Source: a candidate division FCPU426 bacterium
Lineage (GTDB): Bacteria > Oederibacteriota > Muellerivitia > Muellerivitales > Muellerivitaceae
DNA: 64,000 nt
Assembly (NCBI GenBank): GCA_963719085.1
Contig: CAVRAL010000001.1
Location: 768,001 to 832,000 of the forward strand
Direction of reading: 5' to 3'
The position numbers and the translations under genes are program-made. How positions within the stretch are numbered: the first letter of the stretch is position 1; each line of letters opens with the position of its first letter. Below, in pieces: positions 2,284 to 63,090 of this stretch. The notes under the pieces were generated by a model, which had not been told where the DNA came from, ran no database searches, and saw nothing but the letters and a program-made list of their open reading frames with translations.

Positions 2284-2371
2284 CCGCCTCTTTTTGATTT
2301 TTTATAAAAAAGTATAATTCGGCGGTCGGTTGTCAGTATACTTTCGGTTCTTCTGTTGGAGGGTTTTGGGT

Positions 2372-2444
2372 GAGTCGTTAGCTCAGCTGGTAGAGCACCA
2401 CACTTTTAATGTGGGTGTCCCGGGTTCGATCCCCGGACGACTCA
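2372..2444 (+). tRNA. tRNA-Lys(UUU); CCA not fully encoded (followed by CCG)
   Basis: Acceptor GAGTCGT/ACGACTC, anticodon arm CCACA-CT TTT AA-TGTGG, T-loop TTCGATC. Confidence 0.96.
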
Positions 2445-2524
2445 CCGAGAACCCTCTTGAAATTTCCCCTGCTGGATCCCGAAGCGCTAGCTTAGTTTTT
2501 GTAGGACCTGATCAAGGAGCTTCC

Positions 2525-3106
2525 ATGTCAGCGACCCAATCCACCATGCTGGCCCTGGGCACCCAGGCGCCCGATTTTTCGCTCCCGGATGTGCGCACCG
2601 GCGCTATGGTCTCGCCCAAGGATTTTTTGGGCAAGCGGGGATTGTTGGTCATGTTCATTTGCGCCCATTGCCCCTATGTGAAGCATATCCAGGAAGAAAT
2701 CGCCCGGGTGGGGAAGGACTTTGGCCCGAAGGGCATCGCCTTCATCGCGGTTGGCTCCAATGACGCGGTGAATTATCCCGACGATGGGCCCCTGGGACTC
2801 AGGGCCCAGGCCGAGCGCTTTGGTTTTGACTTTCCCTATGTTTTTGACGAGACCCAGAACGTCGCCAAGGCCTACCGGGCGGCCTGCACCCCGGAGTTTT
2901 ACCTCTTTGACGCTTCCCAAAAGCTTTATTACCGCGGCCAGCTGGACGATAGCCGGCCTAAAAACACCCTGCCCGTGACCGGCCAGGACCTTCGCGCGGC
3001 CTTGGACTCGCTCTTGACCGGTCAAACTGCCCCCGGCGACCAAAAACCAAGTATTGGCTGTAATATAAAATGGAAAAAGGGAAACGAGCCGGATTACTTC
3101 GGCTAA
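2525..3106 (+). CDS. Thioredoxin-fold/peroxiredoxin-like redoxin (AhpC/TSA type)
   Basis: FICAHCPYV, YRAACTPEF and PSIGCNIKWK motifs; AGGAG before ATG 2525. The longer ORF from 2330 overlaps the tRNA. Confidence 0.9.
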   Translation: MSATQSTMLALGTQAPDFSLPDVRTGAMVSPKDFLGKRGLLVMFICAHCPYVKHIQEEIARVGKDFGPKGIAFIAVGSNDAVNYPDDGPLGLRAQAERFGFDFPYVFDETQNVAKAYRAACTPEFYLFDASQKLYYRGQLDDSRPKNTLPVTGQDLRAALDSLLTGQTAPGDQKPSIGCNIKWKKGNEPDYFG

Positions 3107-3195: not shown

Positions 3196-5673
3196 TTGAA
3201 CGTTCCACATAGGCTGAAAACCTTTTTGGACGATGTTTTGCTGAAAGCCATTGGGGACATCGGTGAGGGCATCCTTGTTTTAGAGGGTACCCGAATTGTC
3301 TATGCCAACGAGACTTTTCAGGAAATGACGGGCTATTCGGAAGCCCAACTCCTCGATAATTCCTCCTTCTTCGATCTTCTGGAAGACCTGAATAAAGAAA
3401 AACATCTTGAGAAGATCGCGGCCTTCCGAAAAAATCCAAAGGGTTTGCTCCGCTTCCAAGCTTCCATTCATGCCGATTCCATTCGAATGATTTCTGCTGA
3501 AATCACATTGACCGTTTTAAAAGATGATCCCCAAGACCGGATGGTGGCCCTGGTCCGTGATATTTCAGACCAGAAGCGGCTGCAAGAGGCGGTGAAGGAC
3601 CAAGAAGTTCAATATAAGCTTCTTTTTAAAAACAACCCGAATCCCATGTTCATTTACGACTTGGAGAACTTGAGGATTTTGTCGGTCAACGACGCCGCGA
3701 TTCAAAAATACGGTTATACGGAAAAAGAATTCCTCAAAATGACGTTGAAGGACCTTCGGCGCGAGGAGGATGTCCCGAAGCTTTTGGAGCTTTTAGACGG
3801 CCTGAAAACAGGCGTCAATGTTTTAAAAGACACCGTGATCCACCGCAAAAAAGACTCGAGCTTGATCGAGGTGGAGGTGATTTCCCATTCCACGCTTTTC
3901 GAGGGAAAGGCCGCGCGGGTCATGATGGCCTACGATATGACCGAAAGCCGGAAAGCTGAAAGCGCCCTGCGCGAGAGCGAGCAAAAATTTCGGGAGCTTT
4001 TTAATAACGCCAATGACGCGATTTTTTTATACACCCTGTCTGATGACGCGATCCCGGGTAAGTTTTTGGAAGTGAATGATATCGCCTGTCAAAAATTGGG
4101 ATACAGCCGCGCCGAGCTTCTGACCATGACTCCTTTAGATATCGTGGCGCCGGAAGACTTAAATGAAATGCCGAAGATTTACAAAAAGTCCCTCCGCCAA
4201 GAGCACATCACCTACGAGAAGATTCACGTCACCAAGACGGGGCTTAAAATCCCGGTGGAAGTGAACTCGCATACCTTTCTTCGCAACGGGCAAAAGGCCG
4301 TGCTTTCCATCGCCCGGGATGTCACCGACCGCAAGCGGGCCGAGGAAACCATCCGCCGGCAGGCCTATTACGACCCCTTAACCAATCTGCCCAATCGGAC
4401 CCTTTTTAAAGACCGCCTGGAACAGGCCATGAGCCACGCCCATCGAAACAAGCAGTCCCTGGGCGTGATCATTCTCGACTTGGACCGCTTCAAAAATATC
4501 AACGAGACCTTGGGGCATATTTTGGGGGACCGGCTTTTAGTGGCGGTGGCCGAAAGATTGATCGGATCCATGCAGGAAGGGGAAACCATCGCCCGTTTTG
4601 GCGGGGACGAGTTCACTTTGCTTTTGCCCCAAGTCAATCAAGTGGATGAAACCACCCAACATGCCCAGAAGATTCTTGAGATTCTGGCCGAGCCTTTTCG
4701 AATCAACGATCATGAACTGCACTTGACGACCAGTATGGGAGTCGCTTTTTACCCCGATGACGGTGAAAACGCTGAAATCTTGCTGAAAAACGCCGAGACC
4801 GCCATGTACCGGGCCAAGGAGCAAGGCCGCAATAACTTCCAGCTTTACGCCTCCGTCATGAATGTGAGCGCCTTTAAACAGCTGCTAATGGAAAACAGCC
4901 TTCGCCGGGCTTTGGAAAAAGAGGAGTTCGTCGTTCATTATCAACCGCAGATTGATTTGGTCAGCCGCCAGATGGTGGGGGTAGAGGCTTTGGTGCGTTG
5001 GCAGCATCCGGATTTAGGATTGGTTTTTCCGACCGAATTTATCGGGTTGGCCGAGGACACCGGTTTGATTGTCCCCATCGGGGAATGGATGATTAAAAAA
5101 GTCTGCCAGCAAAATAAAAAATGGCAGGACATGGGGCTTCCCAAAGTCTGCATTTCGGTCAACTTGTCCGCTCGGCAGTTCCAACAGCGCAATTTGGTGA
5201 CCTCGATCGCCAAGGTCATCGCCGAGACGGGCCTGGACGCCCAATATGTGGGTTTTGAGATTACTGAGAGCATCGCCATGAAGAACGCCGATTTCACCAT
5301 TTCGGCCTTGAATGAGCTTCAAAAAATGAAGATTCATCTTTCACTGGATGATTTTGGAACGGGTTATTCCTCGTTGAGCTACCTCAAAAGGTTTCCGTTG
5401 GAGACCCTGAAAATCGACCGCTCGTTTGTGCGGGATATCGCCACCGACCCCAATGACGCGGCCATCGTGACCGCGGTCATCGCTTTGGCCCACAGCTTAA
5501 AGCTGAGCGTGGTGGCCGAGGGCGTGGAGACGGAGGGTCAACTGGCGTTTCTCAAGAGCCATCAATGCGACCAGGTTCAGGGCTATTACTTCAGCCATCC
5601 CTTGTCCGAAGAACAGTTTTTCAGGATGTTGAAAGAGATGAAGAACAGCCAGGTGCCGCAGGCAAAGGCCTGA
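3196..5673 (+). CDS. PAS-PAS-PAS GGDEF-EAL diguanylate cyclase/phosphodiesterase
   Basis: Three PAS repeats; YDPLTNLPNR, RFGGDEF, VEALVRW and DDFGTGYSS all intact; no RxxD I-site (QEGE instead). Confidence 0.95.
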   Translation: MNVPHRLKTFLDDVLLKAIGDIGEGILVLEGTRIVYANETFQEMTGYSEAQLLDNSSFFDLLEDLNKEKHLEKIAAFRKNPKGLLRFQASIHADSIRMISAEITLTVLKDDPQDRMVALVRDISDQKRLQEAVKDQEVQYKLLFKNNPNPMFIYDLENLRILSVNDAAIQKYGYTEKEFLKMTLKDLRREEDVPKLLELLDGLKTGVNVLKDTVIHRKKDSSLIEVEVISHSTLFEGKAARVMMAYDMTESRKAESALRESEQKFRELFNNANDAIFLYTLSDDAIPGKFLEVNDIACQKLGYSRAELLTMTPLDIVAPEDLNEMPKIYKKSLRQEHITYEKIHVTKTGLKIPVEVNSHTFLRNGQKAVLSIARDVTDRKRAEETIRRQAYYDPLTNLPNRTLFKDRLEQAMSHAHRNKQSLGVIILDLDRFKNINETLGHILGDRLLVAVAERLIGSMQEGETIARFGGDEFTLLLPQVNQVDETTQHAQKILEILAEPFRINDHELHLTTSMGVAFYPDDGENAEILLKNAETAMYRAKEQGRNNFQLYASVMNVSAFKQLLMENSLRRALEKEEFVVHYQPQIDLVSRQMVGVEALVRWQHPDLGLVFPTEFIGLAEDTGLIVPIGEWMIKKVCQQNKKWQDMGLPKVCISVNLSARQFQQRNLVTSIAKVIAETGLDAQYVGFEITESIAMKNADFTISALNELQKMKIHLSLDDFGTGYSSLSYLKRFPLETLKIDRSFVRDIATDPNDAAIVTAVIALAHSLKLSVVAEGVETEGQLAFLKSHQCDQVQGYYFSHPLSEEQFFRMLKEMKNSQVPQAKA

Positions 5674-8432: not shown

Positions 8433-8519
8433 GCGGAAGTGGCGAAATTGGCAGACGCACTAGATTCAGGTTCTAGCGGGGGCAACCCCATGGGGGTTCA
8501 ACTCCCCCCTTCCGCACCA
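8433..8519 (+). tRNA. tRNA-Leu(CAG)
   Basis: Acceptor GCGGAAG/CTTCCGC, anticodon arm CTAGA-TT CAG GT-TCTAG, long variable arm, CCA encoded. Confidence 0.96.
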
Positions 8520-57020: not shown

Positions 57021-57097
<77 letters not shown>

Positions 57098-57142
57098 GAT
57101 GCCATTTTGGTTGGTTGGATCCCGCTGGAAAATAATAAATGT

Positions 57143-57219
57143 CGGGGCGTGGCGCAGCCCGGTAGCGCAGTTGCATGGGGTGCAAAAGGTCGCAGGTTCA
57201 AATCCTGCCGCCCCGACCA
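57143..57219 (+). tRNA. tRNA-Pro(GGG)
   Basis: Acceptor CGGGGCG/CGCCCCG, anticodon arm GTTGC-AT GGG GT-GCAAA, CCA encoded. Confidence 0.93.
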
Positions 57220-57250
57220 TTTTATTTTCTGGTTTCGCTCAAGGATCCAC

Positions 57251-57997
57251 ATGGTTCGGAATAAAAAAGTCATTGTCGTGATGCCCGCCTATAACGCTGA
57301 AAAAACCCTCGCTGAAACCTATCAAGAAATTCCGTTGGATTTGGTCGACAAGGTCATTTTGGTCGACGACGCCAGCTCGGATCATACGTCGGAACTCTCT
57401 GAAAAATTAGGCTTGGAAACGATTGTCCATCCCCAAAACCGCGGGTACGGGGCGAATCAAAAGACCTGTTATCGGGCGGCTTTAGACGCGGGCGCGGACA
57501 TTGTGGTCATGCTTCATCCGGATTATCAGTACACGCCCAAGCTCATCTCCGCCATGGTTTATCTGCTGGAATCCGGGACTTTCGAGGTCGTATTGGGATC
57601 CCGGATTTTGGGCGGGAAGGCGCTTTCGGGAGGTATGCCGGTTTATAAGTACTTCAGTAACCGGGTTCTGACCTTCCTCCAAAACTTTTTGATGGGCGCC
57701 AAGCTTTCCGAATACCACACCGGCTACCGGGCCTATGACCGCGCGGTTCTGGAGGCGATTCAATGGGAAAAAAACTCGGATGACTTTATTTTCGACAACC
57801 AATTTCTTTCTCAAATCCTGTACAAAGACTTTAAAGTAGGGGAGATCAGCTGTCCCGCCAAATATTTCGCGGAAGCCTCCTCAATCAATTTTAGCCGCAG
57901 CGTAAAGTACGGGTTGGGTTGCTTATGGACCGCCCTGGAGTATCGACTGGCCAAATGGGGTTTTCCCTCCCGTTCGTTCCCCGTACCGCATGCCTGA
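57251..57997 (+). CDS. GT2 glycosyltransferase (polyprenol-phosphate sugar synthase-like)
   Basis: [26 protein letters not shown] and HPDYQY motifs. Confidence 0.92.
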
Positions 57998-60765: not shown

Positions 60766-60800
60766 TTAAGGGCGGGGAAAAGGGCGGTTCTTCGACTTTT

Positions 60801-61965: not shown

Positions 61966-63027
61966 TTAGGCCCTCGGTTTTTGCATTTTACGGAATTGTT
62001 TTAACACCGCGTCCATTTCTGAAATCGGCGTTAAATTCAAGGCCTGGGTCCCCGGGCCCGCGCCAAAGGCCCTCCCATGGGCTTTGCGGGCACCCGTGGA
62101 AGCCAGCTTCACGTAGCTTTCACTGACCACAATGCTGGAATGGCCCATTAAATCCCGAATCTCATAGGCGGAAGCCCCGGATTCGGCTAATTGGGTTCCA
62201 AAGGAGTGGCGCAGGGCGTGGACGGTGATATCCTCGGCCATTTCCAATCCGGCCCAGGCGGCGGCCTGTTTCACCCAAGTCTCAATGTAATCCGGATGGA
62301 TGGGTTTGGCCGCGCTCCGCGGGCTTGAGAATAAATAATCGGAAGCCGGCAGGCCCGCCGCGTTTTTTTCCGCCAGGTACCTTTTTAATTGGGTCTGGAG
62401 CATTTTGGTCATGGGGATGGTTCGTTCTTTGTCGCCCTTGCCGATGACGGTGACTAAGCCTTGGTCCAGGTTGACGTCGCTCAATTTCACGCGAGAAATT
62501 TCGGAGACCCGCAGGCCGCAGTGGTAGCCCAAAAGGACCGTCAGGCTTATTTTGAGGTCGTTGAACTCCTGGACCCTTAACCCCTGGACGAGGCGGTCCC
62601 GGTCCTTGATCGCCAGCGGATGGGGGTTTCTTTGGGGGCTTCGGATGTTCAAGTTATGGAAGACGGCCGTGGGATCATTGGTGATGTACTGGATGGAGGC
62701 CAAATGCCGGTAAAAAGAGCGGGTGGCGGCCAAAATTCGTTTCATGGACCTGGTTGAGTAGGCCGCCCGCGGCTTGCCGCTGGGAGTCAAGCCGGGCTTG
62801 GTCAAGGACGCCGCGAAGCGGATCAAGTGCTCGGGTTTTACATTTTGAGGCCCCTCAATGCCCAAACCATCCAAAAACTGCTTCAGGATCCTTAAATCTT
62901 GATGATAGTTTTCCTGGGTGTGGGTTGACTTGCGCAGGGACAAAAAGTCGTCGTAGGGGCTGAGGAGGCGCAAATCTTGCGCGGGTTCGTTAGGATTGGC
63001 CGATGGATGGGATGGAGTCGGTTTCAT
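61966..63027 (-). CDS. Xer-type tyrosine recombinase
   Basis: N-terminal SAM-like domain; catalytic R (GLRVSE), K (GKGDKER), HALRH, MGH and Y. ATG 63027 preferred over TTG 63090. Confidence 0.93.
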   Translation of the reverse strand: MKPTPSHPSANPNEPAQDLRLLSPYDDFLSLRKSTHTQENYHQDLRILKQFLDGLGIEGPQNVKPEHLIRFAASLTKPGLTPSGKPRAAYSTRSMKRILAATRSFYRHLASIQYITNDPTAVFHNLNIRSPQRNPHPLAIKDRDRLVQGLRVQEFNDLKISLTVLLGYHCGLRVSEISRVKLSDVNLDQGLVTVIGKGDKERTIPMTKMLQTQLKRYLAEKNAAGLPASDYLFSSPRSAAKPIHPDYIETWVKQAAAWAGLEMAEDITVHALRHSFGTQLAESGASAYEIRDLMGHSSIVVSESYVKLASTGARKAHGRAFGAGPGTQALNLTPISEMDAVLKQFRKMQKPRA

Positions 63028-63055
63028 ATTTGGTATAACTGTAATTATACCGAAT
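63028..63055. other. dif-like recombination site (11-6-11)
   Basis: ATTTGGTATAA CTGTAA TTATACCGAAT; the arms are 10/11 inverted repeats with the inner ATAA-N6-TTAT typical of dif. Confidence 0.75.
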
Positions 63056-63071
63056 AACTTTCCGGGTTCAA
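63044..63071 (-). promoter_or_regulatory. Putative promoter of the recombinase gene, overlapping the dif-like site
   Basis: Minus strand TTGAAC (63071-63066), 16-nt spacer, TATAAT (63049-63044). Confidence 0.6.
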
Positions 63072-63090
63072 GCCTAAAATGAAAGCCCAA

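What the first reader, a model, noticed from the sequence alone, without database searches (positions are those of the whole stretch)
61966..63055. Candidate single-recombinase Xer/dif system: symmetric dif-like site abutting the recombinase start codon
Seen: the 28-mer ATTTGGTATAA-CTGTAA-TTATACCGAAT (63028-63055) has 11-bp arms that are inverted repeats at 10/11 positions around a 6-bp asymmetric spacer. It begins at the base next to the likely ATG (63027) of an intact tyrosine recombinase, and the flanking genes are housekeeping-type with no mobile cargo. Known: dif sites are 11-6-11 with inner ATAA/TTAT. Two-enzyme XerCD sites have dissimilar arms, whereas XerS, XerH and archaeal XerA act alone, and difSL lies just upstream of xerS. 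Inference: a self-contained chromosome-dimer resolution module that may be undescribed for this lineage.
Basis: partly seen in the sequence, partly recalled or inferred. Interest (0 to 1): 0.88.

Follow-up and report, generated by a model that had tools for sequence, protein, structure and literature searches.

The report
Xer-like recombinase with built-in dif-like site
A chromosomal recombinase gene of an uncultured bacterial lineage carries, inside its own promoter, a conserved mirror-symmetric 28-base site that looks like the target such enzymes use to separate joined daughter chromosomes, but its position at the replication end point is not shown.

Summary
The 28-mer sits at 63028-63055, with 10 of 11 complementary arm positions. 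It abuts the ATG (63027, minus strand) of an intact 353-aa tyrosine recombinase.

In the window alone such a repeat is only mildly unusual. The weight comes from comparison. All 14 orthologous loci with upstream DNA carry an 11-6-11 site at the same place. Both arms change together at 7 of 11 positions.

The recombinase is vertically inherited, syntenic, flanked by housekeeping genes and catalytically intact. It falls below every XerC, XerD, XerA and XerS cut-off and lies in a clade apart from canonical XerC/XerD.

New here: the gene-proximal half of the site supplies the -10 of a sigma-70-type promoter, with a -35 at the right spacing in 11 of 14 loci. This suggests autoregulation.

The dimer-resolution reading is the best explanation but is unproven. 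GC skew does not invert at the site in the window or in most relatives. A conserved convergent switch of gene orientation lies 2.3 kb away. Replication polarity through the locus differs between genomes. Absence of XerC/XerD could not be tested.

Verdict: a likely new member of the single-recombinase Xer/dif kind. Interest is moderate.

The parts
63028..63055 (.). 28-bp dif-like site. Arm 63028-63038, 6-bp spacer 63039-63044 (CTGTAA on +, TTACAG in gene orientation), arm 63045-63055. GC is 7 of 28.
   Evidence: Conserved with covarying arms in 14 of 14 loci. It is the only ATAA-N6-TTAT in the window.
61966..63027 (-). Tyrosine recombinase gene, 353 aa plus stop. The catalytic Tyr305 codon is at 62113-62115. 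R173, K197, H270, R273, H296 and Y305 are invariant in 21 aligned sequences.
63044..63071 (-). Sigma-70-type promoter-like element: -35 TTGAAC at 63071-63066, 16-nt spacer, -10 TATAAT at 63049-63044. The -10 is made of the inner five bases of the gene-distal arm plus the first spacer base.
   Evidence: 10 of 12 consensus matches. A -35 with at least 4 of 6 matches lies 16-18 nt from the same arm position in 11 of 14 loci, against 14% of 294 displaced control anchors. This is a consensus match only; no transcript data exist.
60766..60800 (.). Context, not part of the module: intergenic point where gene orientation switches from + (44 of 48 listed genes upstream of it) to -. The convergent arrangement is conserved in relatives.

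Best explanation
A self-contained, single-recombinase Xer/dif-type module. Shown: the gene encodes an intact two-domain tyrosine recombinase, and a unique 11-6-11 site with symmetric arms has been kept next to it through deep divergence, with both arms changing together. Inferred from that symmetry: one protein species binds both arms as a dimer. Inferred from what is known of XerS, XerH, XerA and XerL: two copies of the site on a chromosome dimer synapse, Tyr305 cleaves at the arm/spacer borders, and the asymmetric 6-bp spacer (Y-T-R-Y-A-R in all 14 loci, never fully symmetric) fixes the alignment, so strand exchange resolves the dimer into monomers. The inner half of the upstream arm is also the -10 of the gene's promoter. 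In 8 of 14 loci the start codon lies within -7 to +2 nt of the site. Bound recombinase would therefore block its own transcription, which would give autoregulation (inferred). Whether FtsK controls the reaction is unknown.
For: Site and gene. Orthologues are one per assembly in 16 assemblies, at 57-70% identity. More than 100 90%-identity clusters share 53-89% identity. The site is present in 14 of 14 loci that have upstream DNA. Seven of 11 arm positions changed on both sides, four never vary, and 93.5% of cells are complementary. No second copy (up to 8 mismatches) occurs within 10 kb in any locus or within the 64-kb window. Gene order is conserved on both sides and there are no mobile genes. 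The catalytic residues are invariant. The fold and nearest sequences are XerD, XerA and XerH. The family lies in a clade split from XerC/XerD-labelled representatives with SH-aLRT 100. Site GC is 25% against about 52% for the window; low GC, palindromicity and non-coding position are dif hallmarks in PMC2731167 (abstract and passages). Recombinase genes next to their dif are reported for XerS and XerH (PMC5357621, sections 12-13). A convergent switch of gene orientation lies 2.3 kb from the site and is conserved in relatives. The polarity of fourfold-site skew through the same gene order differs between genomes, which is easier to explain near a terminus.
Against: GC skew does not invert at the site. 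It is positive in every 4-kb window up to 64000. Coding-strand fourfold-site skew of the three minus-strand end genes is -0.085, -0.277 and -0.208. That resembles the internal minus-strand genes (pooled -0.33) more than the plus-strand genes (+0.015, sd 0.11). In L002 the 10 kb beyond the site keep the same polarity (up -0.19, down -0.01). In L005, L014 and L003 the polarity is the opposite but again runs through the site. Raw skew changes sign at the site in 2 of 7 loci with 10 kb on both sides, and weakly. Only 945 nt lie beyond the site in the window. Absence of xerC, xerD and a canonical dif elsewhere in the genome was not tested. No binding or recombination data exist. The palindrome would also fold as an RNA hairpin (-12.6 to -19.4 kcal/mol).
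Confidence: 0.55

Rival explanations
1. The recombinase does bind and perhaps recombine this site, but its role is not dimer resolution. The site could be mainly an operator that lets the enzyme repress its own promoter, while the enzyme's real substrate lies elsewhere. Examples are a distant inverted copy that makes an invertible segment, or a docking site for integrating elements. The lineage would then have an ordinary XerCD/dif as well.
For: The site overlaps the -10 and the start codon. Skew does not invert at the site. Single extra genes are wedged between the hydrolase gene and the site in L002, L003, L008 and L013.
Against: No second copy or half-site pair flanks the extra genes or occurs within 10 kb or 64 kb. 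An operator alone does not need a conserved asymmetric 6-bp spacer or an invariant catalytic set. A vertically inherited, syntenic, single-copy recombinase is not the usual picture of an accessory recombinase.
Confidence: 0.25
2. The palindrome is not a recombinase site. It would be an RNA hairpin in the 5' leader that controls translation or stability, or the operator of an unrelated dimeric transcription factor.
For: The RNA fold is stable, with z-scores of -3.8 to -6.95. Compensatory changes in a stem look the same as covarying arms. In 8 of 14 loci the start codon lies at or inside the 3' arm.
Against: If the conserved -35/-10 is real, transcription starts inside the palindrome and the 5' arm is not transcribed. 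The loop-equivalent positions 2 and 5 of the spacer and the TATA of both arms are invariant, and the length is exactly 11-6-11 in all 14 loci, which is the core-site format of Xer-type enzymes (PMC2958812 passages). Of the 10 non-complementary cells in 154, only 1 further cell is a G-U type pair. No Rfam family matches there (gathering thresholds).
Confidence: 0.1
3. The gene and site are the integrase and attachment site of an integrated or decayed mobile element.
For: The Pfam names are Phage_integrase family. Integrase genes usually lie next to one att site.
Against: The same housekeeping genes flank the pair on both sides in genomes whose recombinases are only 57-70% identical and whose GC ranges from 44 to 60%. 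No phage, plasmid or transposon genes occur in the window. There is no direct repeat of the site. The identity spread of the family parallels that of ribosomal protein S1.
Confidence: 0.03

Closest known systems
XerA/dif of Archaea (Thermococcales, Thermoplasma)
   Same: A single recombinase acts on an 11-6-11 site whose arms have few or no mismatches (PMC2958812 passages; PMC5357621 section 14). XerA structures are among the best sequence and fold matches (4a8e at 113 bits; 5hxy is the top Foldseek hit).
   Different: The protein scores 133.8 bits against the XerA model, below its cut-off of 220, and lies in another clade than the XerA-labelled representatives. In Thermococcales dif is not next to xerA. 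The host here is bacterial.
XerS/difSL (streptococci, lactococci) and XerH/difH (Helicobacter, Campylobacter)
   Same: A single recombinase gene lies next to its site as one module, and protein length is about 350-360 aa (PMC5357621 sections 12-13; PMC2731167). The model superposes best on XerH-difH complexes (TM 0.61).
   Different: The XerS model scores 83 bits against a cut-off of 267. XerH 5jjv scores only 49.5 bits by profile. difSL is 31 bp with an 11-bp central region, and difH has unequal arms. Here the site is 28 bp with nearly perfect dyad symmetry.
XerC/XerD with dif (most bacteria)
   Same: The closest sequence models and solved structure are XerC (162.5 bits), XerD (154.1 bits) and 1a0p (126 bits). 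The site has the same 28-bp 11-6-11 format with ATAA/TTAT inner arm ends and low GC.
   Different: Scores are less than half of the cut-offs of 335 and 330. The family lies in a separate clade. The arms are symmetric, so one enzyme suffices. The protein has a 10-residue insert in the N-terminal domain and about 40 extra C-terminal residues relative to E. coli XerD.
XerL/dif of Legionellales
   Same: It is a single recombinase with long uninterrupted inverted-repeat arms, and it was missed by homology searches (bioRxiv 10.1101/2021.09.12.459815, passages).
   Different: There, gene and site are more than 400 kb apart and the site lies at the GC-skew maximum. Here they abut and the skew position is unproven.

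Membership tests
Simple (two-domain) tyrosine recombinase | N-terminal SAM-like core-binding domain plus C-terminal catalytic domain | tested here: met
   PF02899 (42 bits, cut-off 22) and PF00589 (105 bits, cut-off 27) match. The AlphaFold model has mean pLDDT 84.1, and its top PDB folds are XerA, XerD, integron integrase and XerH.
Simple (two-domain) tyrosine recombinase | Catalytic R-K-H-R-H/W-Y set | tested here: met
   R173, K197, H270, R273, H296 and Y305 are invariant in 21 sequences. They align with the corresponding motifs of E. coli XerD. Which Lys of GKGDKER is the catalytic one was read from the alignment, not tested.
XerC or XerD (NCBIfam equivalogs TIGR02224, TIGR02225) | Score at or above the curated cut-off | tested here: not met
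   XerC scores 162.5 against 335.15, and XerD 154.1 against 329.6. The family's 50%-identity representative P0071 and the next 21 representatives that were scanned (22 of the 107) match no Xer model at E <= 1e-70.
XerC or XerD | Placement inside the XerC or XerD clade | tested here: not met
   In a quick IQ-TREE of 56 rows, the 31 non-canonical rows (10 family, 5 sister, 16 intermediate) split from 25 rows labelled XerD, XerC or XerA with SH-aLRT 100. I chose the rows myself. XerS, XerH and XerL references were not available.
XerA (NF040815), XerS (NF003462) | Score at or above the curated cut-off | tested here: not met
   XerA scores 133.8 against 220, and XerS 83.1 against 267.
dif site | About 28 bp: two 11-bp inverted arms around a 6-bp central region, with the inner arm ends palindromic | tested here: met
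   The definition is taken from PMC2731167 and PMC2958812.
dif site | Low G+C relative to the chromosome, and non-coding position | tested here: met
   Seven of 28 bases are G or C, against 0.49-0.54 for the window. The site is intergenic in 13 of 14 loci. In L008 the start codon lies inside the arm.
dif site | Single copy in the replicon | tested here: inconclusive
   It is unique in the 64-kb window and in each locus within 10 kb on either side. The rest of the 1.44-Mb contig (length) was not available.
dif site | Located at the replication terminus (cumulative GC-skew switch) | tested here: inconclusive
   Against: there is no inversion in the window or in L002, and polarity runs through the site in L005, L014 and L003. 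For: a conserved convergent gene-orientation switch lies 2.3 kb away; polarity differs between genomes; and L007 and L004 fit a switch at the site. Only 945 nt lie beyond the site in the window and 10 kb in the loci.
dif site | Recombined by the cognate Xer enzyme; loss gives a segregation defect | not testable with these tools
   This needs gel-shift, cleavage and resolution assays, and genetics.
Single-recombinase Xer/dif module (kind, not a sequence family) | Recombinase gene genetically linked to its site | tested here: met
   The site lies -7 to +14 nt from the start codon in 14 of 14 loci.
Single-recombinase Xer/dif module (kind, not a sequence family) | No second, paralogous Xer recombinase in the genome | not tested
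   None of the 51 proteins scanned from the 64-kb window is a second recombinase. The rest of the genome was not searched, because the cap on genome-contig scans was reached.

The most novel reading that the evidence does not exclude
This is a further, so far undescribed bacterial single-recombinase chromosome-dimer-resolution system that replaces XerCD in a deep uncultured lineage. Its dif site is built into the core promoter and translation start of the recombinase gene. Occupancy of dif would then set the enzyme's own level. The flips of the spacer relative to the gene between close relatives would reflect turnover of the site's polarity.
Probability: 0.35. Interest if true: 0.6.

Novelty: new member of a known kind. 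Interest (0 to 1): 0.5.

Why it matters
If confirmed, this adds another independent case to XerS, XerH, XerA and XerL in which one recombinase and a symmetric site do the work of XerC, XerD and dif. It would come from a lineage known only from metagenomes. The covarying arms give a natural series of matched protein/site pairs (three arm types in 14 loci) for studying how a tyrosine recombinase re-specifies its DNA target. The overlap of site and promoter would be a simple feedback circuit that I did not find described in the Xer papers I read (the sections and passages named in the report). The site could also serve as a terminus marker for assembling and orienting genomes of this lineage.

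Tried and rejected
**GC skew**
- Raw GC skew in 2-kb bins around the site in 11 sources is dominated by gene-specific composition. The recombinase gene and the 1076-aa gene are negative in nearly all genomes, so it gave no usable terminus signal.
- Fourfold-site skew was clearer but did not settle the question.
- I compared spacer polarity with skew polarity by eye, and saw no consistent link. L006, L008 and L009 break it.

**Integrated elements at the site**
- I searched for a second full site (up to 8 mismatches) and for half-sites (up to 2 mismatches) around the extra genes in L002, L003, L008 and L013. Only scattered chance-level half-site hits turned up.
- The first generic scan had an indexing error and returned nothing useful. 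The own-site search in the same call is valid.

**Other searches**
- The ESM Atlas search returned only generic recombinase clusters and no help with taxonomy.
- Rfam found only 4 tRNAs in the window.

**Analyses not run**
- A KOPS-type polar-word analysis was considered and dropped. Gene orientation flips at the same place as the expected polarity switch and would confound it.
- A homo-oligomer prediction was not run, because all tyrosine recombinases oligomerise and a pass would not separate the hypotheses.

Full report
**What is in the sequence**

On the + strand, 63028-63055 reads ATTTGGTATAA-CTGTAA-TTATACCGAAT. The two 11-nt arms are complementary at 10 of 11 positions. The repeat finder extends them to 12 nt at 92%. 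The base before the site is the T of CAT at 63025-63027, which is the ATG of a minus-strand ORF ending at 61966.

The ORF listing starts this ORF at a TTG at 63090, giving 374 aa. However, 19 of the 20 relatives aligned begin at the Met that matches 63027 (the twentieth, P0089, lacks its first 48 residues), and hits are 338-361 aa long. I therefore take the protein as 353 aa.

It carries Phage_int_SAM_1 and Phage_integrase domains. The 28-mer is unique in the window at up to 3 mismatches.

**Is it more than chance?**

Within the window alone, only weakly. Three 11-6-11 inverted repeats with at least 10 of 11 matches occur in 64 kb. Block shuffles give 0.5 on average, and 42% of them have at least one. 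It is, though, the only ATAA-N6-TTAT in the window.

The decisive evidence is comparative. A scan of one genome per species returned 56 loci. Sixteen of them (L001-L016, one per assembly) encode orthologues at 57-70% identity. Three of these (L012, L015, L016) start inside the gene and have no upstream DNA. In the other 13, and in the window, an 11-6-11 palindrome sits at the same place.

The arms fall into three types, written in gene orientation:

| Inner arm sequence | Loci |
|---|---|
| ...CGGTATAA / TTATACCG... | window, L001, L002, L004, L007, L010 |
| ...TTCTATAA / TTATAGAA... | L003, L005, L006, L009, L011, L013, L014 |
| ...TCATATAA / TTATATGA... | L008 |

Counting the arms as pairs:
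- 93.5% of 154 cells are complementary, against 33-42% when the partner is slid by 1-3 columns.
- 7 of 11 positions show changes on both sides.
- 4 positions never vary (the TATA of each arm).
- 0 of 500 shuffles reach the observed values.

The sequences are related, so the shuffle count is not a probability, but the slide control keeps relatedness. Both arms of the site therefore evolve together. This is what a site read by two copies of one protein should do.

**The gene and its family**

- The catalytic residues R173, K197, H270, R273, H296 and Y305 are invariant in 21 sequences and align with the E. coli XerD motifs.
- The nearest curated models are XerC (162.5 bits, cut-off 335), XerD (154.1, cut-off 330), XerA (133.8, cut-off 220) and XerS (83, cut-off 267). 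None is reached.
- In a profile search of 1.84 billion representatives, the family collapses to one full-length 50%-identity cluster (P0071). It is followed by a sister group at 270-300 bits and other unnamed groups.
- Of the 107 representatives scanned, the 22 highest-scoring match no Xer model at E <= 1e-70. Canonical XerD and XerC appear only lower down.
- A quick maximum-likelihood tree of 56 rows that I selected puts family, sister and intermediate rows (31) on one side. The 25 rows labelled XerD (15, all above cut-off), XerC (8, of which 4 are above cut-off) or XerA (2) fall on the other side, with SH-aLRT 100.
- The AlphaFold model (pLDDT 84.1) is a two-domain recombinase. Its best PDB folds are XerA 5hxy, XerD 1a0p and, by TM-score (0.61), XerH bound to difH.
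- Relative to XerD the protein has a 10-residue insert in the N-terminal domain and about 40 extra C-terminal residues that end in a predicted helix.

**Setting**

The window is ordinary chromosome. It holds purA, RNase R, argS, glyA, the aromatic amino-acid pathway, cmk, rpsA, tolQR, der, plsY, gpsA and a sigma-70 factor. None of the 51 proteins scanned is another recombinase or a mobile-element protein.

The order S49 peptidase, 631-aa protein, 1076-aa Omp85/PD40 protein, 220-aa protein, 2-hydroxyacid dehydrogenase, hydrolase, SITE, recombinase, aminotransferase, then TPR protein, apt and the sigma factor on the other strand recurs in the 20-kb loci. Those loci range from 44 to 60% GC.

The identity spread of the recombinase (53-89%) parallels that of ribosomal protein S1 (70-97%, then a drop to 57% and 40%). 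Six contig lengths recur in both hit lists. The gene is therefore vertically inherited and not mobile.

The lineage is labelled only 'bacterium', 'uncultured proteobacterium', 'Proteobacteria bacterium' or 'Candidatus Firestonebacteria' in record titles. I could not name its phylum.

In gene orientation the upstream arm ends in TATAA. With the first spacer base this makes TATAAT or TATAAC. In the window a TTGAAC lies 16 nt further upstream. A -35 with at least 4 of 6 matches lies 16-18 nt from the same position in 11 of 14 loci, against 14% of 294 displaced anchors.

Distance from the site to the start codon, as I read the starts:

| Loci | Distance | Shine-Dalgarno |
|---|---|---|
| window, L001, L002, L007, L010, L011, L013 | 0-2 nt | none |
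| L008 | start codon inside the arm | none |
| L003, L004, L005, L006, L009, L014 | 12-14 nt | GGAGG-like sequence present |

The site therefore spans the -10, the likely transcription start and often the translation start of the recombinase gene. Bound recombinase would be expected to shut off its own synthesis. This is inference from consensus matches only.

**Is it at the terminus?**

This is the weak point.

Against:
- Skew on the + strand is positive in every 4-kb window to the end, and only 945 nt lie beyond the site.
- At fourfold-degenerate sites the 44 plus-strand genes have a coding-strand skew of +0.015 (sd 0.11). The four internal minus-strand genes pool to -0.33.
- The three end genes are at -0.085 (aminotransferase), -0.277 (recombinase) and -0.208 (hydrolase, beyond the site). 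They look lagging or intermediate, not like leading-strand genes of the other replichore.
- In L002 the seven genes beyond the site pool to -0.19, against -0.01 on the other side. In L005, L014 and L003 the contrast is reversed (-0.18, -0.07, -0.12 against -0.41, -0.43, -0.36).
- Raw skew changes sign at the site in 2 of the 7 loci with 10 kb on both sides (L007, and trivially L005).

For:
- 44 of 48 genes before 60.78 kb are on the + strand. From there on, all genes are on the - strand: three in the window, and a further seven to nine in relatives. This is a convergent switch conserved across genomes.
- The polarity of mutational skew through an unchanged gene order differs between genomes. 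That is expected if the fork-meeting point wanders around this locus, and it is hard to get in mid-replichore without inversions.
- L007 and L004 fit a switch at the site: both flanks are alike and the recombinase and aminotransferase genes are more negative.

I rate this feature inconclusive.

**Other readings**

- *Mobile-element att site.* Excluded in practice by the synteny and by the lack of any second copy.
- *Integration at the site.* Single extra genes lie between the hydrolase gene and the site in L002 (NmrA-like), L008 (214 aa, opposite strand), L003 and L013. No second site or half-site pair flanks them.
- *RNA hairpin.* It cannot be excluded on energy. It fits poorly with a promoter that starts inside the palindrome, and with the invariant 11-6-11 format and invariant spacer positions 2 and 5.
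- *Operator only.* A pure operator would not need an intact catalytic set.

**Spacer**

The spacers are TTACAG, TTGCAG, TTATAG, TTGTAA, CTACAA, CTATAA and CTGTAA. All fit Y-T-R-Y-A-R and none is fully symmetric, which is what a recombination site needs to keep a direction. With seven types this is not significant by itself; my estimate is about 0.13 under free choice.

Relative to the gene the spacer can read as the reverse complement in loci with identical or near-identical arms (L003 against L009; window against L006). I found no link between this polarity and skew polarity.

**Comparison with what is known**

Gene-linked single-recombinase modules are described for XerS/difSL and XerH/difH (PMC5357621, sections 12-13 read; PMC2731167, abstract and passages). 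XerA/dif has an 11-6-11 site with few or no arm mismatches (PMC2958812, passages; PMC5357621, section 14). XerL/dif has perfect inverted repeats, but with gene and site more than 400 kb apart (bioRxiv 10.1101/2021.09.12.459815, passages).

A classification of tyrosine recombinases notes Xer-related groups in candidate phyla without describing their sites (PMC8138268, passages).

Two full-text searches listed no paper that describes this family or a dif site inside a xer promoter. Supplements were not read. That is the extent of my claim that it is not in print.

**Verdict**

The site is very probably the recombinase's own binding and recombination site (my estimate is about 0.8). That it is the lineage's chromosome-dimer resolution system is the best reading, at about 0.55. 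I file it as a new member of the known kind 'single-recombinase Xer/dif module', with the promoter overlap as its own twist.

Noticed in passing
window 60766-60800; L002, L003, L004, L005, L007, L008, L014: There is a convergent switch of gene orientation between the TPR gene and the aminotransferase gene, 2.3 kb from the site. It is conserved in relatives. In the window, 44 of 48 genes before it are on the + strand.
   Followed up: partly
L002, L003, L005, L014 against window (whole loci): The polarity of fourfold-site GC skew through the same gene order is opposite in different genomes. The window and L002 go one way; L005, L014 and L003 go the other; L004, L007, L008 and L013 are about equal on both sides.
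   Followed up: partly
L002:8996-9850; L008:9146-9790; also L003 and L013 just upstream of the site: Single lineage-specific genes are wedged between the hydrolase gene and the site: an NmrA-like protein in L002, and a 214-aa Thr/Pro-rich protein on the opposite strand in L008. No second site flanks them.
   Followed up: partly
L003:4193-4220 against L009:2897-2924; window 63028-63055 against L006:9932-9959: In loci with identical or near-identical arms, the 6-bp spacer reads as the reverse complement relative to the recombinase gene (TTATAG against CTATAA; TTACAG against CTGTAA).
   Followed up: partly
L008:9953-9980: The start codon of the recombinase gene lies inside the gene-proximal arm of the site. 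The protein P0058 begins MKYKTT.
   Followed up: no
window 2372-2444, 8433-8516, 57021-57093, 57143-57216 (+): Four tRNA genes were found. Two overlap the 5' ends of the mechanically listed ORFs 2330-3106 and 57035-57997, whose real starts are probably further downstream.
   Followed up: no
representatives P0253, P0254, P0257, P0259, P0261-P0263, P0265-P0267 and others: Many proteins of 600-870 aa match the recombinase profile in two or more separate stretches. They may be tandem fusions of two tyrosine recombinases.
   Followed up: no
PDB 9i5v chain 14: A 401-residue chain named 'Ribosome-associated translation inhibitor RaiA' matches the recombinase profile at 108 bits over positions 89-338. 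The name may not fit the chain.
   Followed up: no
window 3196-5673 (+): This is a large PAS-GGDEF-EAL protein (cyclic-di-GMP turnover). It is the only obvious signalling gene in an otherwise housekeeping window.
   Followed up: no
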